Shown here piece by piece: positions 1 to 7,514 of a stretch of DNA of 54,590 bases. The position numbers were made by a program, and so were the translations under genes. Under the pieces are notes generated by a model. That model worked only from the letters and a program-made list of their open reading frames with translations, was not told where the DNA came from and searched no databases. Origin of the DNA: Deltaproteobacteria bacterium HGW-Deltaproteobacteria-22. Lineage in GTDB: Bacteria > Myxococcota_A > Polyangia > HGW-17. The stretch covers positions 1 to 54,590 of the forward strand of contig PHAZ01000006.1 in assembly GCA_002841825.1 (NCBI GenBank), in the 5' to 3' direction. Each line of letters opens with the position of its first letter. Position 1 is the first letter of the stretch.

Positions 1-111
1 CCTGAGCCCGCGCCTGAGCCGGTGGTTGCCGAAGAGGCCGCCCCTGAGCCCGCGCCGGAACCGGTGGTTGCCGAAGAGGCCGCGCCTGAAGCCGCGCCGG
101 AACCGGTGGAT
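1..111 (+). repeat. 42-bp in-frame tandem repeat (PEPAPEPVVAEEAA), about 2.6 copies, may extend beyond the window
   Basis: Units 1-42 and 43-84 plus a partial unit 85-111, with synonymous variation. Confidence 0.85.
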
Positions 112-351
112 TCCGTCCCGGAGCCGGTTTCCGAGGAAGGCGAGCGCACCATCCCGATCGATCCTGGCGCCACGATGCTGGATCTGGCCGCCGTTTCCGA
201 CGCCATGCCCGTTGAGGACACCGCCGCCCACGAGGGTTCCTCCGACGGCAGCGGTGAAGAGGGTTCTTCGGCCGAGGATGATGGATCCTCCTCCGGTGAC
301 GAGGAAGGCGGAGACAAGAAGAAGCGCCGCCGTCGCACGAAGAAGAAATGA
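1..351 (+). CDS. 5'-truncated hypothetical protein; acidic Pro/Ala/Glu-rich C-terminus with polybasic tail
   Basis: Frame is open from base 1 (PEPAPEPVVAEEAA repeats) to TGA at 349-351 and ends KKKRRRRTKKK; the start lies outside the window. Confidence 0.7.
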   Translation, partial: PEPAPEPVVAEEAAPEPAPEPVVAEEAAPEAAPEPVDSVPEPVSEEGERTIPIDPGATMLDLAAVSDAMPVEDTAAHEGSSDGSGEEGSSAEDDGSSSGDEEGGDKKKRRRRTKKK

Positions 352-363
352 GACCGCGGGCGA

Positions 364-1239
364 TTGATGACCCTTCTTCCTGGCATCGTCTTTCCCTCCA
401 GTCCGGTGCCGTCCGAAGCCCTGGCCGACGGGCTGCGTTTTCTGCCCCGACATAAACTGTTCTCCCCCGAACCTGATCAATGGCCCTTCCTGGCCGGCTC
501 TGATGCGGATCGGACCCGGCTCTTATGCGAGGCCCTGCGAGATCCCGAGGTGGATCTCCTCATCGCTGCGCGTGGCGGGCATGGGGCGCTGCGCCTGGAT
601 CGGGACCGCATCCTCGGGACCCTGAAGGAGCACCCCAAGCCCATCATCGGCTTCTCCGATGTGACGGCCCTGCATTTTCTCTGGCAGGTCGCGGGCGTGC
701 CCTCGGTGGCGGGTCCGAACGTGACCCAGCTTCCCTTGCTGCCCGCCGACCAGACAGACCGTGTGCTGCACCTGCTTTCAACCGGGGAGCTCGGGCCGCT
801 GGGCGTCCCGCTGACAGCCCACAGGGATGCGCAGGGACAGACCGTTGCCGGTCCGCTGGCAGGGGGAAACCTGGCTGTGATCGCCTCGGCGGCGGGTACG
901 CCATGGGCGCCCTCGTTCTCCGGCCGGATCGTGTTCCTGGAGGAGGTGCACGAGGCCCCGTACCGGATCGATCGCATGCTCTGGCAGATCCTGCACGCCA
1001 CGGACCTGACGCGGGCAGCCGCGATTGTGTTCGGCGAGTTCACCGAATGTCCGGGGTTCAGGATGGACCTGCTGCTGGCCACCTGCGGGCAGTTCGCGCC
1101 CGGGGTGCCCCTGTTTTCCGGCTTCCCCTCCGGGCACGGCGCGACCAACGTCGCCTTCGTCTCCGGGGCGGTGGCCCGCATCGACGGCCGAACCGCCACG
1201 CTGACCCAGCCCGGGGTCCGTTTTTCAGCAACATCATGA
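364..1239 (+). CDS. ldcA: LD-carboxypeptidase (peptidase S66, muramoyltetrapeptide carboxypeptidase family)
   Basis: ARGGHG, IIGFSDVTAL (catalytic Ser), GGNL, FLEEVHEAPYRIDRML (Glu), GHG (His); start at 364 or 367. Confidence 0.9.
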   Translation: MMTLLPGIVFPSSPVPSEALADGLRFLPRHKLFSPEPDQWPFLAGSDADRTRLLCEALRDPEVDLLIAARGGHGALRLDRDRILGTLKEHPKPIIGFSDVTALHFLWQVAGVPSVAGPNVTQLPLLPADQTDRVLHLLSTGELGPLGVPLTAHRDAQGQTVAGPLAGGNLAVIASAAGTPWAPSFSGRIVFLEEVHEAPYRIDRMLWQILHATDLTRAAAIVFGEFTECPGFRMDLLLATCGQFAPGVPLFSGFPSGHGATNVAFVSGAVARIDGRTATLTQPGVRFSATS

Positions 1240-2792
1240 AGCTCATCGTCTCCCTGCTCGATCAGCAACTGGCCTATCATTTGCCCCATCTGGGCGGCGA
1301 GCCGGTGAGGGTTTCCTACCCAGGGGAGCGCATCGCGACCCTGTGCGGCGAGATCCGCAACGTCACCTTCCGCATGGTGCACTCGGATCTGGGACTGGAG
1401 AGCGGCTATGGCCAGCTCGAGGCGCTCTCACGCGCCCTGTCCGGACTGATCCTGCCCACCGAAATCGCAGGGCATCTGAGGCGGGCCGACGGTTTCCTGA
1501 CGCTTCAGATCGAGCCCCGGTTGCAGCACATACCCTGGGAATGGCTGCACGACGGCGAGGACTTCTGGTGTCGCCGTTTCTCGATCGGGCGGGTCCACCG
1601 CCAGGGCGCCGCGGCCCTCCTGCGCGAGCCTGCCAGGCCTGTGAAGATGCTCGTGGTGGTGTCCGATCCGGACCGCGATCTGCCCGGTGCGCTGCCCGAG
1701 GCACGCAAGCTCGTCCGGGCCCTGGATCATGAGCAGGCCTACGTCGCGCGGCTCATGGTCAATCCTACGATTGAAGAATTGATCAAGAATTTCAATCAAT
1801 ATTCCGTGGTGCACTATGTCGGCCACATGAAGTCCGTCCCCGGGGAGGACGGTCCGCTGCCGGCCTGGCAGTTGAAGAACGGCACCTTCGGCGTTCCCGA
1901 GATGGCCGCCTGCTTCTTCGGCGGCTGCCGCGTGCGGCTGGTGTACTCCAACGCCTGTCCTGGGCTCGCGACGGATCCGGGCGCCGCTGCCACCTGGCCA
2001 CGGGCGCTTTCGCAGGCCGGCGTCCAGGCTGTGATCTCCACGCTGATGGACGTGCCGGACCGCTCCGCCGCGGAGATGACGGCGGGCTTCTACGAGGATC
2101 TGGCCTCGGGAAAGAGCCTCGGGGAGGTGCTGTCCCTGGCGCGGGAGCGTGCGCGCACCCGGCTCGGGAAGCTCGACATCACGTGGATGCTGCACATGCT
2201 GCACGGTGATCCGGATCAGGTCCTGCTGCCCGTCAAGTCCACGCTGGAGAACGGGGCGCGGCTTCGGGTCTCGGGTCCTGTGCCCTACAAGGCGCCGCTG
2301 ACCCCCCAGCCCCCGGCCAGGAACACCTGGCGCCGGTTCGAACTGGGGCTGTTCGGCGCGCTGCTTCTGCTCACCGCGGGCCTGCTGGCCCGTCCACTCT
2401 GGGAGCGTTCGACGGAGTGGAAGCCGCTGCCGATGCCGGTGGAGCTGGAGCCGTTCTCGGGACGGATCCTGTTCTCCGGTTTCGAGGGAGCCGATCCGGC
2501 CTTCGCCACGGAGACCCTCGAGGCCGAGCAGTGTTTCATCCGGACCCTGACCACCCTGCCGGGAGTCCGGCTGCAGGACGGGCGGGAACGTCCGGCCATG
2601 CTCACCACGCCGTTCATGGAAATCAGCGGGCGGGTGGTCATGGGCTCCTCCGGGGAGGGCAAGCTCCTGCTGATGGTCAAGCGCACCTCGGATCGCATCG
2701 TGCTCTATGCCGATGATTTTCCCCTGCCGATGGCCGACGAGACCCCGTGCGTCCGGCTCCAGGACTGGATTCGCCGCAAATACGATCTGTAG
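1236..2792 (+). CDS. CHAT-domain (caspase-like, clan CD) protein with one TM helix and a C-terminal extracytoplasmic domain
   Basis: LQHIPWEWL, VVSDP..LPGA..EA, VHYVGH (His), YSNAC (Cys), FY..L..G..L..AR, then hydrophobic LGLFGALLLLTAGLLA. ATG at 1236 overlaps the ldcA stop (ATGA); the upstream part of track ORF 525..2792 is not supported. Confidence 0.85.
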   Translation: MKLIVSLLDQQLAYHLPHLGGEPVRVSYPGERIATLCGEIRNVTFRMVHSDLGLESGYGQLEALSRALSGLILPTEIAGHLRRADGFLTLQIEPRLQHIPWEWLHDGEDFWCRRFSIGRVHRQGAAALLREPARPVKMLVVVSDPDRDLPGALPEARKLVRALDHEQAYVARLMVNPTIEELIKNFNQYSVVHYVGHMKSVPGEDGPLPAWQLKNGTFGVPEMAACFFGGCRVRLVYSNACPGLATDPGAAATWPRALSQAGVQAVISTLMDVPDRSAAEMTAGFYEDLASGKSLGEVLSLARERARTRLGKLDITWMLHMLHGDPDQVLLPVKSTLENGARLRVSGPVPYKAPLTPQPPARNTWRRFELGLFGALLLLTAGLLARPLWERSTEWKPLPMPVELEPFSGRILFSGFEGADPAFATETLEAEQCFIRTLTTLPGVRLQDGRERPAMLTTPFMEISGRVVMGSSGEGKLLLMVKRTSDRIVLYADDFPLPMADETPCVRLQDWIRRKYDL

Positions 2793-2798
2793 GAGCCC

Positions 2799-2830
2799 GT
2801 CGGGAAAGACCTCGGTCGGATTTTCCCGAC
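2799..2830 (+). terminator. Hairpin downstream of the CHAT gene, possible terminator
   Basis: GTCGGGAAA (2799-2807) pairs with TTTCCCGAC (2822-2830); no U-tract follows. Confidence 0.4.
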
Positions 2831-2861: not shown

Positions 2862-2889
2862 TTGCATTTTGTCCGGAAAGTTCTAAGTT
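2862..2889 (+). promoter_or_regulatory. Possible sigma70 promoter for birA-oad
   Basis: TTGCAT-N16-TAAGTT in an AT-richer intergenic gap. Confidence 0.3.
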
Positions 2890-2958: not shown

Positions 2959-3708
2959 ATGCATGAATGGAATCACCCCTTTCAGTTCCTGCCCGTCGCC
3001 GATTCCACCAGCGCGATTCTCAAGGCTTTCGTGCAGAAGGATCAGTTCATCCCGGGCGCCGTCGCCGCGCGTGAGCAGACCGCCGGGCGCGGGCGCGGGG
3101 ACAACGTATGGCAGTCCCCTCCGGGGGGCCTGTACCTCTCGGTGGCGCTGCCGGTCCCGGACGCCGCGCTGCTTCCGCTGATCGGCCCGGGCATCGCCTG
3201 CGACGTGGCCCGGTGGCTCAACGAGCGCTTCGCGGTGGAGGCGCGGATCAAGTGGCCCAACGACTGGCTCGTCGCGGACCGTAAGCTCGGCGGGCTGCTC
3301 ATGGAGCTGGTGCGCTCCCCGCAGGGCAGTCTGGTGGTGGTGGCCGGCATCGGGCTCAACGTGTTCCACGCGCCCACGCTGCCCGGTCGGCGCGCGTTTC
3401 TGCCCACGGCGCTCCACGAATGGGCCGACCTGACGGGCCAGGACCTGGTCCTGCTGGCGCGGGAGCTGGCCGGGATCGTGGGGCAGAGCGCCTCCGTCCA
3501 CGCCTCGATGGAGCCGCGGCTCCGAGCGTTTCTCGTCGGGCACAGCGCCACGCTGGGACGTGAGGTGACCGTGGATCTCCCTGGCGGGGAGCGCGTCACC
3601 GGCGTCGCCGAGGGCTTCGCGCCCGATTTTTCCCTGTTGGTGAAGACCGCCGATCGCATCGTGCGCGTTGCGGCGGGAGACTGTTTTCATGAACCGGTAC
3701 CCGGTTAA
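2959..3708 (+). CDS. birA: Biotin--protein ligase without an N-terminal HTH
   Basis: DST, AREQTAGRGR..W.SPPGGLYLSV, IKWPND, KLGGLLME, GIGLNV, C-terminal SH3-like region. Confidence 0.92.
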   Translation: MHEWNHPFQFLPVADSTSAILKAFVQKDQFIPGAVAAREQTAGRGRGDNVWQSPPGGLYLSVALPVPDAALLPLIGPGIACDVARWLNERFAVEARIKWPNDWLVADRKLGGLLMELVRSPQGSLVVVAGIGLNVFHAPTLPGRRAFLPTALHEWADLTGQDLVLLARELAGIVGQSASVHASMEPRLRAFLVGHSATLGREVTVDLPGGERVTGVAEGFAPDFSLLVKTADRIVRVAAGDCFHEPVPG

Positions 3709-3720
3709 GGAGGTTGCACG

Positions 3721-3996
3721 GTGACACAGGCATTGACGACCACAGCTTTGGGAATGACCATCGTATTTCTCGTGCTCGCGCTGATCTACGGCAGCATCGT
3801 GATCCTGGGCCTCTTTGAGCCCAAGGCGTCGGTGGCCGCCGCGACGATCCCTCCCTTCTCCACCGCGCCTGCCGGAGGCCCTGCCGCCGTGACGCCCGAA
3901 GAGGAGGCGGCCATCCACGCGGCCATCGCCCACCACACCGGCCGCGCCCCCGAAACGTTTCAAACCCGGATTTCCCCGGTTAAAAAGGAGTCCTAA
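3721..3996 (+). CDS. oadG: Na+-translocating decarboxylase gamma/delta-type subunit (OadG family)
   Basis: GMTIVFLVLAL TM segment, Ala/Pro linker, EEEAAIHAAI helix; AGGAGG RBS; position before the alpha subunit. Confidence 0.8.
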   Translation: MTQALTTTALGMTIVFLVLALIYGSIVILGLFEPKASVAAATIPPFSTAPAGGPAAVTPEEEAAIHAAIAHHTGRAPETFQTRISPVKKES

Positions 3997-3999
3997 ACC

Positions 4000-5766
4000 A
4001 TGGTGAAAATTACCGAGACCATCCTGCGGGACGCCCATCAGTCCCTCATCGCCACGCGCCTGCGCATCGAAGACATGATTCCGGCCCTCGAGCTGCTGGA
4101 TTCCATGGGCTATCACTCCCTGGAAGTGTGGGGCGGCGCGACGTTCGATTCCTGCATGCGTTTTCTGGCCGAGGATCCCTGGGAACGGCTGCGGACCATC
4201 CGCAAGGCCGTGAAGAAGACCAAACTGCAGATGCTCCTGCGGGGTCAGAACCTCGTGGGCTACCGTCACTACGCCGATGACGTGGTGGACCGCTTCGTCG
4301 AGCTCGCCGCCAAGAACGGCATCGACATCTTCCGCATCTTCGACGCGCTCAACGACGTCCGCAACATGGAGCAGGCCATCCGCGCCGCCGTGAAGACGGG
4401 CAAGCACGTGCAGGGCACCATCTCCTACACCCTGTCGCCGGTGCACACCGAGGATCTGTTCGTGACCTTCGCCAAGGAGCTCAAGGGCCTGGGCTGTCAC
4501 TCGATCTGCATCAAGGACATGGCCGGCCTCCTCGATCCGGCCGCCTGCACCAGCCTGGTGTCGCGCCTGAAGAAGGAAGTCGCGCTCCCCGTGCAGGTGC
4601 ACACGCACTGCACGTCGGGCCTGGCCCAGATGACCTACTTCGCCGCGGCCGAGGCCGGCGCCGACGTCGTGGACTGCGCCCTGTCGCCGTTTTCGGGGGG
4701 CACCTCCCAGCCGCCCACCGAGAGCGTCGTGTTCGGCTTCGCCAAGACCCCGTACGACACGGGCATGGATCCGACCGCCTTCAAGCCCCTGACTGCCGTC
4801 TTCAAGGAAGTGCGCAAGAAGTACGACTCCATGGTCTCCCCGATCTCCGAGCGCGTGGACGTGGACGTGCTGATCTACCAGATCCCCGGCGGCATGCTCT
4901 CGAACCTGGTCAGCCAGCTCGAGAAGCAGAAGAAGCTCGACCGCTACGAGGACGTGCTCCTCGAGGTGCCCCGCGTGCGCACCGACATGGGCTATCCGCC
5001 GCTGGTCACCCCCACGAGCCAGATCGTCGGCACCCAGGCGGTCATGAACGTCATCGCCGGCGAGCGTTACAAGATGATCACCAAGGAGACCAAGGAATAC
5101 GTCCGCGGCATGTACGGCCGCACCCCGGCCCCGATCTCCCCGGAGATCCGCAAACTGATCACGGGCGACGAGCCCATGGTCGACGGCCGCCCGGGCGATC
5201 ACCTCAAGCCGGAGCTGCCCGAGATCAAGGAAAAGTACAAGGACCTGATCAAGAAGGAGGAGGACGTGATCTCCCTGGCGCTGTATCCCGAGGTTGCGGC
5301 CAAGCTGCTGTCGGGCAAGGCCGAGGCCGAGCCCATGCCCTCGGTCGCCGCCCCTGCCGCGGCAGCCGCGGCCCCGGCCGCTGCTCCTGCCGCCGCCGCC
5401 CCTGCCATGACCGGCCCCGGCCGGTACCAGGTGCAGGTCAACGGCAAGGTCTTCACCGTGGACGTGGCCCCGGTCACGGCGGGCTCGGCGCTCCCGATGC
5501 CGGTGGCGGTCTCGGCCGCCCCGGCTCCGGTCGCCGCCGCGCCGTCCGCTGGCGCGCGGGCATTGCCCAGCCCGCTGCAGGGCACGGTCTTCAAGATCCT
5601 GGTCAAGGTCGGCGACCGCGTGGAGACCAACTCCCCGGTCCTGATCCTGGAAGCCATGAAGATGGAGAACGAGATCACGGCGCCGTTTGGCGGCGTGGTG
5701 AGTCAGATTCTGGTCAAGGAGGGACAGGGCGTCGACGCCGATGCGCCCCTGATAGTGCTCGAATAG
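4000..5766 (+). CDS. oadA: Oxaloacetate decarboxylase alpha subunit (carboxyltransferase plus biotinyl domain)
   Basis: [36 protein letters not shown], Ala/Pro linker, EAMKM biotinylation motif. Confidence 0.93.
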
Positions 5767-5776
5767 GAGGTCTTCC

Positions 5777-6937
5777 ATGTCCGGTGTAGAAAATGTCATC
5801 CAGTCCATGGGCTTCATGAACCTCACCTGGGGTCATGTGGCCATGCTTGGCATCGCCATGATCCTCCTCTACCTGGCCATCGTGCGCCAGTTCGAGCCGC
5901 TTTTGCTGATCCCGATCGCCATGGGCGTCATCCTCGCCAACGTGCCCATCGCCGACGTCATGGCCCATCCCGACCTGACCAAGCCCTTCGTTCCGGCGGA
6001 CCTGAGCTCCTGGGGCGTGGTGTACGTGGTGTACTTCTGGGGCATCAAGTCCGGGTTGTTTCCGCTGCTCATCTTCATGGGCGTGGGCGCCATGACCGAC
6101 TTCGGGCCCCTGATCTCCAACCCCAAGACGATCTTCCTGGGCGCGGCCGCCCAGTTCGGCATCTTCGGCACCCTCATCGGCGCGGTGGCCTTGGGCTTCC
6201 CCATGCATGAGGCGGCCAGCATCGGCATCATCGGCGGCGCCGACGGTCCGACGGCGATCTTCACCACCACCAAGCTGGCCCCGCACCTGCTGGGCCCCAT
6301 CGCGGTGGCGGCCTACAGTTACATGGCCCTGGTGCCCATCATCCAGCCCCCGATCATGCGGCTGCTGACCACGAAGAAGGAACGCGCGATTCGCATGGAG
6401 CAGATGCGCCCGGTGAGCAAGCGGGCCAAGATCATCTTCCCGATCATGGTCACCCTGGTGACCATCGTCCTGATCCCGGACGCGGCCCCCCTGGTGGGCA
6501 TGCTCATGTTCGGCAACCTGGTCAAGGAGGCCGGCGTCGTGGACCGCCTGTCCAAGACCGCGGCCAACGAGATGATCAACATCGTGACGATCCTGCTGGG
6601 CCTGTGCGTGGGCGCCACCATGGACGCCAACACGTTCATCAACGTCAAGACGATCAAGATCGTCGTGCTGGGCCTCATCGCCTTCTCGGTGGGCACCGCC
6701 ACGGGCCTGCTCTTCGCCAAGCTCATGAACTGGTGGTCCGGCGGCAAAGTCAACCCGCTGATCGGCTCGGCCGGCGTCTCCGCGGTGCCCATGGCGGCCC
6801 GCGTGTCCCAGAAGGTCGGCCGTGAGACCGATCCGAACAACTACCTGCTCATGCACGCCATGGGCCCCAACGTGGCCGGCGTCCTGGGCTCGGCCATCGC
6901 CGCGGGCGTGCTCATCGCCGTGGTGGGCGGCGGCTGA
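5777..6937 (+). CDS. oadB: Na+-translocating decarboxylase beta subunit
   Basis: [57 protein letters not shown]. Confidence 0.96.
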
Positions 6938-6944
6938 TCGCACC

Positions 6945-7514
6945 ATGCGCCTGATCCTTGCGAGTCAGTCCCGCTACAAGAAAGAGTCCCTCCAGCGGCT
7001 GGGAATCCCCTTCGACTGCGAGGACCCCGCCATCGACGAGAGCTCGCTGCCGGGCGAGGCCCCCGAGGAGCTCGTGCTGCGGCTGTGCGTCGGGAAGGCC
7101 GCGACGGTCAGCGCCCGGTGTCCCGGCGCGCTGGTGATCGCCGCGGACCAGGTCGCCGAGCTCGACGGGGAGATCCTGACCAAGCCCGGCACCCCCGAGG
7201 GCGCCCGCGCCCAGCTTCGGCGCATGGCCGGCCGCACCCACCGTCTGCTCACCGCCGTGGCGGTCACCGACGGCGTACGCACCGGGCGCCGCCTCGAGAT
7301 CCACGTGATGACCATGCGTCCCCTCTCCGACGAGGCCATCGCCCGCTACGTGGCGCGCGACAACCCCGTGGACTGCGCCGGCGCCTACAAGATCGAGCGG
7401 GCCGGCATCGCCCTGTTCGCCTCGGTGGTGGGCGCCGATCCCCAGGCCATCGTGGGCCTGCCCCTGATGACCCTGGTGGATCTGCTCGGTCGCTTCGGCG
7501 TCGAGGTGCCGTGA
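6945..7514 (+). CDS. maf: Maf-family nucleotide pyrophosphatase (YceF-like)
   Basis: LILASQSRY, IDE, VIAADQV, KPGT, CAGAYKIE; ATG at 6945. Confidence 0.9.
   Translation: MRLILASQSRYKKESLQRLGIPFDCEDPAIDESSLPGEAPEELVLRLCVGKAATVSARCPGALVIAADQVAELDGEILTKPGTPEGARAQLRRMAGRTHRLLTAVAVTDGVRTGRRLEIHVMTMRPLSDEAIARYVARDNPVDCAGAYKIERAGIALFASVVGADPQAIVGLPLMTLVDLLGRFGVEVP

What the first reader, a model, noticed from the sequence alone, without database searches (positions are those of the whole stretch)
364..2792. LD-carboxypeptidase translationally coupled to a membrane-anchored caspase-like CHAT protease
Seen: ATGA overlap at 1236-1239, an intact His (VHYVGH)/Cys (NAC) dyad, a shared downstream hairpin, and no TPR array or Cas gene. 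Established: S66 LD-carboxypeptidases trim muropeptide tetrapeptides; CHAT proteases act as regulated switches (e.g. TPR-CHAT with type III-E CRISPR). Inference: a two-gene unit that links cell-wall turnover or damage to regulated proteolysis, either signalling or defence.
Basis: partly seen in the sequence, partly recalled or inferred. Interest (0 to 1): 0.62.

Follow-up and report, generated by a model that had tools for sequence, protein, structure and literature searches.

The report
LdcA gene coupled to membrane caspase-like protease
The gene for a housekeeping cell-wall recycling enzyme overlaps by four bases the gene for a membrane-spanning caspase-like protease in one family of Myxococcota; the pairing is real and inherited, but sister lineages carry the same protease behind other housekeeping genes, so it looks like an uncharacterised envelope-anchored regulatory protease, not a dedicated wall-damage or anti-phage switch.

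Summary
An intact S66 LD-carboxypeptidase gene (367-1239) overlaps by ATGA (1236-1239) a 518-aa CHAT protease gene (1236-2792). The His197/Cys241 dyad is invariant, there is one TM helix, and there is no TPR or Cas gene.

New points:
- The organism is a Polyangia (Myxococcota) MAG. This is its only S66 gene and its only CHAT gene.
- The protease is bitopic: cytoplasmic CHAT domain, then a periplasmic TolB-N/PelC/CsgG-like domain with a conserved Cys pair.
- The adjacency is found in every species of one family where both genes could be placed, and in 3 metagenome contigs. It survives loss of the downstream synteny.
- The pair is the tail of a tight seven-gene envelope cluster, not a free-standing unit.
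- The sister family has the same cluster ending in ldcA without CHAT. Other families place the orthologous CHAT gene directly behind dapL, folK or an Rrf2 regulator. The protease therefore does not need LdcA.
- There is no PADLOC hit, no phage match and no mobile context, so defence is unsupported.

The closest architectural analogue is HetF (CHAT-TM-ectodomain, divisome protease). Relatives in other phyla are cyclase-CHAT-TM-TPR-CsgG-like proteins in ECF sigma/anti-sigma operons. Verdict: a real, lineage-specific operon fusion around an uncharacterised transmembrane signalling protease. Interest is moderate.

The parts
1..351 (+). 3' end of the upstream operon gene: an acidic low-complexity protein with a poly-Lys/Arg tail. 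In relatives its N-terminus is weakly PilZ-like.
   Evidence: ORF. Homologous full-length genes sit directly before ldcA in L038, L021, L131 and L119. TIGR02266 gives a weak hit, E 0.0026. Its stop at 349-351 lies 15 nt before the ldcA ATG.
367..1239 (+). ldcA: cytoplasmic S66 LD-carboxypeptidase, 290 aa from ATG 367 (TTG 364 is the alternative start). Triad: Ser97 (nt 655-657), Glu192 (nt 940-942; aligned with the first Glu of the LE[ED]V motif of PA5198) and His257 (nt 1135-1137).
   Evidence: Pfam S66 N and C domains. NCBIfam muramoyltetrapeptide carboxypeptidase, 111 bits. Best PDB relative is PA5198 LdcA, E 1e-32, with the triad aligned. It is the only S66 gene in the genome. There is no N-terminal signal sequence: the S66 domain starts at residue 7.
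1236..1239 (+). ATGA start/stop overlap between ldcA and the CHAT gene.
   Evidence: Sequence. The same overlap is present in the 8 relatives listed. Genus g2 has a 0-30 nt gap with a TTG start instead.
1236..2792 (+). Gene for a 518-aa bitopic membrane CHAT protease.
   Evidence: It is the only CHAT gene in the genome.
1425..2156 (+). CHAT caspase-like protease domain (aa 64-307). Catalytic His197 is nt 1824-1826 and Cys241 is nt 1956-1958.
   Evidence: PF12770, 74 bits (one search gives the same coordinates). Foldseek matches to Csx29, separase, SAVED-CHAT and DdvA at E 5e-11 to 1e-6. The dyad is invariant in 24/24 sequences.
2259..2291 (+). Conserved juxtamembrane linear motif RLRVSGPVPYK (aa 342-352) in a low-confidence linker. 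Family pattern: R-[ASG]-x-x-P-[YWFA]-K.
   Evidence: Alignment of 24 Myxococcota homologues. pLDDT is below 50 for aa 335-362. Its role as an autocleavage or docking site is inference.
2328..2402 (+). Single transmembrane helix (aa 365-389), N-in/C-out.
   Evidence: AF2 helix at 362-389. The hydrophobic core is LGLFGALLLLTAGLLA. There are 3 Arg with no acidic residue on the N side, against net charge 0 on the C side. There is no N-terminal signal peptide.
2448..2789 (+). Periplasmic TolB-N/PelC/CsgG-like alpha/beta domain (aa 405-518) with the conserved Cys433/Cys505 pair.
   Evidence: The domain model has pLDDT 88. Foldseek finds PelC, the TolB N-domain (TMq 0.60-0.65) and the CadC periplasmic domain at E 2e-4 to 2e-3. 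In the 15-sequence domain alignment Cys505 is invariant and Cys433 is kept in at least 90% of rows. The sequence family is confined to 15 representatives of 1.84 billion proteins.
2799..2830 (+). Local hairpin after the stop codon. It is not conserved and is not a canonical terminator.
2862..2889 (+). Conserved promoter-like box (TTGCAT, 16 nt, TAAGTT) ahead of birA. It marks the end of the ldcA-CHAT transcription unit.
   Evidence: The block is conserved in the intergenic alignment of 6 relatives; coordinates. It was not called by the consensus scan. Function is inferred.

Best explanation
ldcA encodes the lineage's single housekeeping cytoplasmic murein-tetrapeptide LD-carboxypeptidase. The next gene encodes a single-pass (N-in/C-out) membrane protease. 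It has a cytoplasmic, catalytically intact CHAT (caspase/separase-type) domain, a disordered juxtamembrane linker with a conserved R-x-x-x-P-Y-K motif, one TM helix, and a small periplasmic TolB-N/PelC/CsgG-like domain with a probable disulphide.

In one family of Polyangia the protease gene was placed directly behind ldcA. There it forms the last gene of a seven-gene, co-directional envelope cluster: OmpA-type peptidoglycan-binding outer-membrane protein, small membrane protein, 161-aa protein, SPFH/zinc-ribbon protein, PilZ-like acidic protein, ldcA, CHAT. It is expressed by read-through transcription and by termination-reinitiation at ATGA.

The protease itself is a vertically inherited, single-copy Myxococcota gene. 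It works without LdcA: sister families express it behind dapL, folK or an Rrf2 regulator.

The most likely mode of action is a HetF-like or anti-sigma-type transmembrane regulatory protease. The periplasmic domain docks to or senses an envelope component. This controls the cytoplasmic CHAT domain, which cleaves one or a few cytoplasmic regulators and possibly itself at the juxtamembrane motif.

Shown here: gene identities, topology logic, folds, conservation, synteny. Inferred: co-transcription, signal, substrate, autocleavage.
For: - Identities and intact catalytic residues.
- Single copy of each gene in the genome.
- S66 is present in 55/61 relatives, almost always as a single copy.
- Pair and ATGA overlap are conserved in family f1, and the pair is kept where birA-oad synteny is lost.
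- Tight seven-gene cluster with 17-71 nt gaps, including OmpA and SPFH proteins.
- Sister family f2 has the cluster ending in ldcA without CHAT.
- dapL-CHAT in f3 and f4; folK-CHAT-plsY in three further families; Rrf2-CHAT in f2.
- The CHAT tree follows taxonomy.
- CHAT fold and TolB-N/PelC/CadC-like ectodomain.
- Relatives in Nitrospirota and Desulfobacterota are [cyclase]-CHAT-TM-[TPR]-CsgG/LpoB-like proteins, some next to ECF sigma plus zf-HC2 anti-sigma genes.
- HetF precedent: CHAT-TM-ectodomain, binds FtsI, cleaves PatU3 after Arg (PMC8406250, PMC9457339).
- No defence or mobile signature.
Against:
- f3 orthologues end right after the TM helix, so the ectodomain is dispensable for at least part of the function.
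- HetF similarity is architectural only: the NCBIfam HetF model scores 11 bits against a cut-off of 1200.
- Two of four upstream partners are meso-DAP/peptidoglycan enzymes. This may mean the neighbour matters more than this reading allows.
Confidence: 0.5

Rival explanations
1. One reading: LdcA and the CHAT protease form a dedicated two-component module. Muropeptide turnover or wall damage, sensed through LdcA or its products, switches on regulated proteolysis.
For: - ATGA coupling is conserved across about 25%-identical orthologues, and the pair is retained after downstream rearrangement.
- An OmpA-type peptidoglycan-binding protein sits in the same cluster.
- The ectodomain fold is shared with envelope proteins (TolB-N; a weak LpoB hit in a relative).
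Against: - The pairing occurs in only one family.
- The sister family has ldcA in the same cluster without CHAT.
- Orthologous proteases are coupled to dapL, folK or Rrf2.
- LdcA is an ordinary single-copy orthologue with no family-specific feature beyond a short loop deletion.
- LdcA is cytoplasmic while the sensor-like domain is periplasmic.
Confidence: 0.17
2. Cis-substrate model: the protease cleaves, and so controls, the enzyme encoded immediately upstream (LdcA here, DapL in other families). This would tie meso-DAP and stem-peptide supply to envelope status.
For: - Two of four independent upstream partners act on meso-DAP chemistry.
- Protease-next-to-substrate arrangements are known for Csx29-Csx30 (literature cited).
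Against: - FolK and an Rrf2 regulator are the partners in other lineages.
- No shared cleavage-like motif was seen in LdcA.
- The argument is post hoc and rests on only four contexts.
Confidence: 0.1
3. Historical accident: the adjacency is an inherited operon fusion with no functional meaning, and the protease has a role unrelated to the envelope, such as general proteostasis or developmental cell death.
For: - The upstream partners differ between families.
- 4-nt overlaps are common and hard to undo once formed (general knowledge).
- f3 orthologues lack the ectodomain.
Against: - Membrane anchoring is universal in the family.
- The envelope-type ectodomain has a conserved Cys pair.
- Relatives sit in ECF sigma/anti-sigma and outer-membrane protein operons.
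Confidence: 0.18
4. Anti-phage or abortive-infection system in which the CHAT protease is the effector or switch.
For: CHAT proteases act in type III-E CRISPR, SAVED-CHAT/CBASS and the DdvA system. These are the structural neighbours found (see also PMC11506125).
Against: - No PADLOC hit for either protein.
- No TPR, SAVED, Cas or gasdermin partner.
- The gene is single-copy, core and vertically inherited among housekeeping genes.
- No phage hit, and only 5 remote plasmid hits.
Confidence: 0.04

Closest known systems
HetF of Anabaena PCC 7120 (divisome-associated CHAT protease)
   Same: It has an N-terminal CHAT protease with a His/Cys dyad, one TM segment and a C-terminal non-catalytic domain. 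It is chromosomal, single-copy and non-defence. It is functionally tied to peptidoglycan synthesis: it binds FtsI and cleaves the division inhibitor PatU3 after Arg (PMC8406250, PMC9457339).
   Different: - There is no orthology: the NCBIfam HetF model scores 11 bits against a cut-off of 1200.
- HetF's C-terminal domain is TPR; here it is TolB-N/PelC-like.
- HetF is about 830 aa; this protein is 518 aa.
- No ldcA, dapL or folK coupling is reported for HetF.
[Adenylate cyclase]-CHAT-TM-[TPR]-CsgG/LpoB-like proteins of Nitrospirota, Desulfobacterota and Omnitrophota (uncharacterised; found here)
   Same: They belong to the same CHAT subfamily, at 30-40% identity over aa ~25-340. A single TM helix follows the CHAT domain, and the C-terminal extracytoplasmic domain is of the CsgG/TolB-N class.
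   Different: - They carry extra cyclase and TPR modules.
- They are encoded beside ECF sigma, zf-HC2 anti-sigma, TPR-CsgG-like and FadL-type outer-membrane genes, not housekeeping enzymes.
- None has an S66 gene within 6 kb.
DdvA (Myxococcus xanthus transmembrane anti-sigma factor with TPR-CHAT)
   Same: It is a myxobacterial single-pass membrane protein with a CHAT domain, proposed to signal across the membrane by proteolysis at a juxtamembrane linker (PMC11506125). It is a structural match at E 3e-7.
   Different: - Its topology is the opposite: the CHAT domain is periplasmic and a zinc anti-sigma domain is cytoplasmic.
- It has a large TPR scaffold.
- It regulates a CBASS/CRISPR island.
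- No sigma-factor partner is present here.
TPR-CHAT Csx29 (type III-E craspase) and SAVED-CHAT
   Same: These are the best structural matches of the protease domain, at E 5e-11 to 1e-8.
   Different: This protein has no TPR or SAVED domain, no Cas7-11, Csx30 or CBASS neighbours, and it is membrane-anchored.
LdcA (PA5198 of P. aeruginosa; E. coli LdcA)
   Same: Both S66 domains are present, the Ser-Glu-His triad is aligned, and the protein is cytoplasmic.
   Different: Identity is about 30-35%, below the NCBIfam equivalog cut-off (111 against 378 bits). Activity on tetrapeptide was not tested.

Membership tests
Peptidase S66 (LD-carboxypeptidase LdcA) | N- and C-terminal S66 domains | tested here: met
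   PF02016 at 67 bits and PF17676 at 99 bits, both above cut-off.
Peptidase S66 (LD-carboxypeptidase LdcA) | Ser-Glu-His catalytic triad | tested here: met
   GFSD, LEEV and SGHG align with the triad motifs of PA5198. They are conserved in family f1/f2 orthologues.
Peptidase S66 (LD-carboxypeptidase LdcA) | Equivalog-level score for muramoyltetrapeptide carboxypeptidase | tested here: not met
   NF008424 scores 110.9 bits against a cut-off of 378. The protein is a family member, but E. coli-type equivalence is not established.
Peptidase S66 (LD-carboxypeptidase LdcA) | Cleaves the meso-DAP-D-Ala bond of murein tetrapeptide | not testable with these tools
   Needs an enzyme assay.
CHAT (PF12770, clan CD cysteine proteases) | Profile match above the gathering score | tested here: met
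   74.4 bits against a cut-off of 24.
CHAT (PF12770, clan CD cysteine proteases) | His-Cys catalytic dyad | tested here: met
   H197 and C241 are invariant in 24/24 homologues.
CHAT (PF12770, clan CD cysteine proteases) | Caspase/separase-like fold | tested here: met
   The AF2 model (pLDDT 82) matches Csx29, separase, SAVED-CHAT, DdvA and caspases.
HetF family | Sequence membership (NCBIfam NF045509) | tested here: not met
   11.4 bits against a cut-off of 1200, E 0.069.
HetF family | CHAT - one TM - C-terminal TPR architecture | tested here: not met
   CHAT plus one TM is present, but the C-terminal domain is TolB-N/PelC-like, not TPR. The resemblance is architectural only.
Type III-E craspase TPR-CHAT (Csx29) | N-terminal TPR array and a neighbouring Cas7-11/Csx30 | tested here: not met
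   No TPR hit. The neighbours are ldcA, birA and oadGAB.
Known anti-phage defence systems (PADLOC-DB) | Match to any defence-protein model | tested here: not met
   0 families for both proteins at E<=0.1.
DdvA-type anti-sigma factors | Cytoplasmic zinc anti-sigma domain, periplasmic TPR-CHAT, cognate ECF sigma gene | tested here: not met
   The CHAT domain is N-terminal with no signal peptide, so it is cytoplasmic. There is no zf-HC2 or sigma gene nearby.
TolB-N / PelC / CsgG-like periplasmic alpha/beta domains | Fold similarity of aa 405-518 | tested here: met
   Foldseek probability 1.0 with E 2e-4 to 1e-3; TMq is 0.60-0.65 to the TolB N-domain and 0.62 to CadC. There is no Pfam sequence hit for the window protein. 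Relatives hit CsgG and LpoB models.

The most novel reading that the evidence does not exclude
The Myxococcota CHAT-TM proteins are envelope-sensing transmembrane caspase-like proteases. They regulate supply of the meso-DAP stem peptide by cleaving the enzyme encoded directly upstream: LdcA in this family, DapL in two others. This would be a protease/cis-substrate switch coupling periplasmic wall status to cytoplasmic peptidoglycan-precursor metabolism.
Probability: 0.1. Interest if true: 0.75.

Novelty: new variant of a known kind. Interest (0 to 1): 0.4.

Why it matters
CHAT proteases are known almost only from defence systems (craspase, SAVED-CHAT, DdvA) and from HetF. This work defines a vertically inherited, single-copy, housekeeping-context family of bitopic CHAT proteases in Myxococcota. 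It is linked by sequence to cyclase-CHAT-TM-CsgG-like proteins in ECF sigma operons of other phyla.

That points to a broader, unstudied class of transmembrane 'caspase receptors' in bacteria. The repeated tight coupling to ldcA and dapL gives a concrete hypothesis to test: envelope status controls stem-peptide metabolism by proteolysis. If the link is only co-expression, the finding is still a useful annotation, but an ordinary one.

Tried and rejected
- PADLOC scan of both proteins found nothing.
- The terminator/promoter consensus scan found no terminator after the CHAT gene and no promoter before ldcA.
- The hairpin as a shared terminator is rejected: it is not conserved and the spacer is not significantly structured.
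- A search for S66 near 70 CHAT loci from other phyla found none.
- The metagenome scan gave only 4 loci, and none is an independent lineage.
- A word-indexed homologue search gave only 9 close relatives.
- An exhaustive profile search with the ectodomain found 15 representatives, most of about 500-540 aa (the length of the CHAT-TM proteins), so the sequence family tells nothing about other contexts.
- A literature search for CHAT plus LD-carboxypeptidase returned 0 papers.
- LdcA alignments showed no family-specific feature that would suggest adaptation to the protease, apart from a short loop deletion shared with the CHAT-less sister family.
- Phage and plasmid collections gave no relevant match.
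- One script call returned no answer and was repeated.
Full report
**Observation**

- An ORF at 364-1239 has a TTG start. ATG 367 fits the N-termini of homologues better.
- It ends in TGA inside ATGA at 1236-1239. That ATG opens a 518-codon ORF running to 2792.
- Pfam finds both LD-carboxypeptidase S66 domains in the first protein.
- Pfam finds a CHAT domain (aa 64-307, 74 bits) and nothing else in the second: no TPR.
- NCBIfam calls the first a muramoyltetrapeptide carboxypeptidase relative, at 111 bits, below the E. coli equivalog cut-off.
- The S66 Ser-Glu-His triad aligns with P. aeruginosa LdcA PA5198, its best solved relative (E 1e-32).
- VHYVGH (aa 192-197) and SNAC (aa 238-241) carry the CHAT dyad H197/C241. 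Both residues are invariant in 24 of 24 Myxococcota homologues.

The 'shared downstream hairpin' is real in this sequence: 2799-2830, dG -20.6 kcal/mol, z -2.1. It is not a terminator, for four reasons:
- it has no U-tract;
- it was not called by the terminator scan;
- it lies in a spacer that folds no better than shuffles;
- it is deleted in a 99%-identical relative and absent in the others.

What is conserved in that spacer is a promoter-like TTGCAT-16 nt-TAAGTT box ahead of birA.

**The two proteins**

LdcA starts its catalytic domain at residue 7 and has no signal peptide, so it is cytoplasmic. It is the only S66 gene in this 87%-complete genome. S66 is present in 55 of 61 related genomes, almost always as a single copy. 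It is therefore the housekeeping ldcA.

The CHAT protein is also the only one of its kind in the genome. An AlphaFold2 model built on 12 homologues (pLDDT 82) shows these parts:
- a CHAT fold at aa 1-325;
- a low-confidence linker at aa 335-362;
- one long helix at aa 362-389, with the hydrophobic core LGLFGALLLLTAGLLA;
- a compact beta-alpha-beta(4)-alpha domain at aa 405-518.

Foldseek matches the protease part to Csx29, separase, SAVED-CHAT and DdvA, at E 5e-11 to 1e-6. The C-terminal domain was modelled alone (pLDDT 88). It matches PelC, the N-terminal domain of TolB (TMq 0.60-0.65) and the periplasmic sensor domain of CadC. This agrees with an earlier first-stage note on the same stretch.

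Topology follows from three points:
- there is no N-terminal signal sequence;
- three Arg with no acidic residue precede the helix, against net zero charge after it;
- the C-terminal fold is extracytoplasmic, and it holds a Cys pair (C433/C505) conserved across families.

The topology is therefore N-in/C-out: protease in the cytoplasm, small domain in the periplasm.

The linker holds a short motif, RLRVSGPVPYK. It recurs as R-[ASG]-x-x-P-[YWFA]-K in nearly all Myxococcota members.

**Who has the pair**

Contig titles of relatives place the organism in Myxococcota, class Polyangia. All are MAGs.

The full-length protein family occurs in 29 of 61 related genomes. S66 lies directly upstream in every species of the window's own family (f1) where both genes could be placed:
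- all six other members of genus g1 in which the genes were found, both g2 and both g3;
- three metagenome contigs.

In genus g4 the two genes sit at contig ends, which is consistent with an assembly break. The one g1 genome that lacks CHAT also lacks S66.

ATGA is preserved in the six g1 relatives examined and in both g3 genomes. The g3 genomes are AT-rich and share only about 25% CHAT identity and about 35% LdcA identity with the window. Genus g2 has a 0-30 nt gap with a TTG start.

The pair stays together where the downstream birA-oadGAB-maf block is lost or replaced: G005, G011 (obg follows) and G008.

**It is not a two-gene unit**

Upstream genes are conserved as strongly as the pair. The order, with gaps of only 17-71 nt in L038, is:
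1. an OmpA-family outer-membrane protein with CarboxypepD_reg domains;
2. a small membrane protein;
3. a 161-aa protein;
4. an SPFH/Band_7_1 protein with zinc ribbons;
5. a weakly PilZ-like acidic protein ending in a poly-K/R tail;
6. ldcA;
7. CHAT.

Window bases 1-351 are the tail of gene 5, and its stop lies 15 nt before the ldcA ATG. No promoter-like site was found in 1-364. The pair is the end of a seven-gene envelope-flavoured cluster.

**The protease does not need LdcA**

The sister family f2 has the same six-gene cluster ending in ldcA with no CHAT gene behind it. Its CHAT orthologue lies on another contig, 6 nt after an Rrf2-type regulator.

In families f3 and f4 the orthologous CHAT gene follows LL-diaminopimelate aminotransferase (dapL; NF006756, 523 bits, above cut-off) with gaps of about 6-50 nt.

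In three further families and in other Myxococcota MAGs it follows folK and precedes plsY. One of these junctions is again a 4-nt overlap. dapL lies 1.6-2.6 kb upstream in three of these loci and about 4.5 kb upstream in a fourth.

In family f1 dapL lies elsewhere. In the other families ldcA lies elsewhere.

A maximum-likelihood tree of the proteases follows taxonomy, so these are orthologues that changed neighbours.

f3 proteins end right after the TM helix. Membrane anchoring is therefore the universal feature, not the ectodomain.

**Wider family**

None of 70 CHAT loci from other phyla has an S66 gene within 6 kb. Their architectures are informative.

Relatives in Nitrospirota, Desulfobacterota and Omnitrophota are [adenylate cyclase]-CHAT-TM-[TPR]-CsgG/LpoB-like proteins. 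Some are encoded next to an ECF sigma factor, a zf-HC2 anti-sigma factor, a TPR-CsgG-like protein and a FadL-type outer-membrane protein. CHAT-TM-(CsgG/TolB-N-class ectodomain) is therefore a recurrent transmembrane signalling design, and the Myxococcota protein is its minimal form.

At sequence level the window's ectodomain family is tiny: 15 representatives among 1.84 billion proteins, most of about 500-540 aa, the length of the CHAT-TM proteins.

**Defence?**

Nothing supports it.
- There are no PADLOC hits.
- There is no TPR, SAVED, Cas or gasdermin partner.
- There is no phage match, and only five remote CHAT matches in 72,556 plasmids.
- The gene is single-copy and vertically inherited, among birA, oadGAB, maf, dapL, folK and plsY.

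**How it most likely works**

Shown:
- a cytoplasmic, intact LdcA;
- a bitopic, intact CHAT protease with a periplasmic envelope-type domain;
- a conserved operon position with start/stop overlap.

Inferred:
- The seven genes are one transcript, and the protease is translated by reinitiation at ATGA. No Shine-Dalgarno-like sequence precedes it in the window.
- The ectodomain docks to or senses an envelope component.
- The CHAT domain cleaves one or a few cytoplasmic targets, and possibly its own juxtamembrane motif.

Two precedents frame this reading. HetF cleaves the division inhibitor PatU3 after Arg while bound to FtsI at the divisome. DdvA is proposed to self-cleave at its linker.

The link to LdcA is best read as co-expression inside an envelope operon. 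A closer link cannot be excluded: two of the four independent upstream partners (ldcA, dapL) act on meso-DAP stem-peptide chemistry. With only four contexts and a post hoc category, that is suggestive, not significant.

**Comparison and novelty**

The protein is a CHAT family member; profile, dyad and fold were all tested and met. It is not a member of three related groups:
- HetF: 11 bits against a cut-off of 1200, and a different ectodomain;
- Csx29-type TPR-CHAT;
- DdvA-type anti-sigma factors, which have the opposite topology.

No paper in the searchable library combines CHAT with LD-carboxypeptidase, and none describes this architecture. I rate it a new variant of a known kind, a membrane-anchored regulatory CHAT protease, with moderate interest.

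**Limits**

No multimer prediction was possible. All relatives are MAGs. My gene calls in the GC-rich loci came from a simple GC3-filtered ORF procedure and were cross-checked by tblastn.

Noticed in passing
window 2862-2889: A conserved promoter-like box (TTGCAT, 16 nt, TAAGTT) lies in the CHAT-birA spacer. It is the only part of the spacer conserved across six relatives, which suggests that birA-oadGAB has its own promoter.
   Followed up: partly
window 1-351; L038:2517-7991; L131:3-2600: Upstream of ldcA, families f1 and f2 share a tight five-gene cluster: an OmpA/CarboxypepD_reg outer-membrane protein, a small membrane protein, a 161-aa LIMLP_15305-like protein, an SPFH/Band_7_1 protein with triple zinc ribbons, and a PilZ-like acidic protein with a poly-K/R tail. 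Its function is unknown.
   Followed up: partly
window 2259-2291 (aa 342-352): A juxtamembrane short linear motif, R-[ASG]-x-x-P-[YWFA]-K, is conserved across Myxococcota CHAT-TM proteins in an otherwise disordered, variable-length linker. It is a candidate autocleavage or docking site. It is absent in genus g2.
   Followed up: partly
L060:3850-11319 (Nitrospiraceae); also L057, L061, L062, L088: Related CHAT proteins are adenylate cyclase-CHAT-TM-(TPR)-CsgG-like fusions. They sit in operons with an ECF sigma factor, a zf-HC2 anti-sigma factor, a TPR/Glucodextran_B/CsgG-like protein and a FadL-type outer-membrane protein. This looks like an uncharacterised envelope signalling system.
   Followed up: partly
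L067:4165-8384 and 12 other Leptospira loci: Leptospira carries a conserved four-gene block around a 605-aa CHAT protein: a 305-aa protein with a weak sigma-70 region-4 hit, a ~240-aa protein, the CHAT protein, and another ~240-aa protein. One copy lies on an L. interrogans plasmid record (NZ_CP092665.1).
   Followed up: no
L033, L034, L035, L036, L032 (family f3): The orthologous CHAT proteins of family f3 stop a few residues after the TM helix. They have lost, or never had, the periplasmic domain, yet they keep the dyad and the juxtamembrane motif.
   Followed up: partly
window 2959-7514: Downstream block: birA (biotin ligase without a repressor domain), oadG, oadA, oadB (Na+-pumping oxaloacetate decarboxylase) and maf. 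A biotin ligase next to its biotin-enzyme client is conserved in genera g1, g3 and g4.
   Followed up: no
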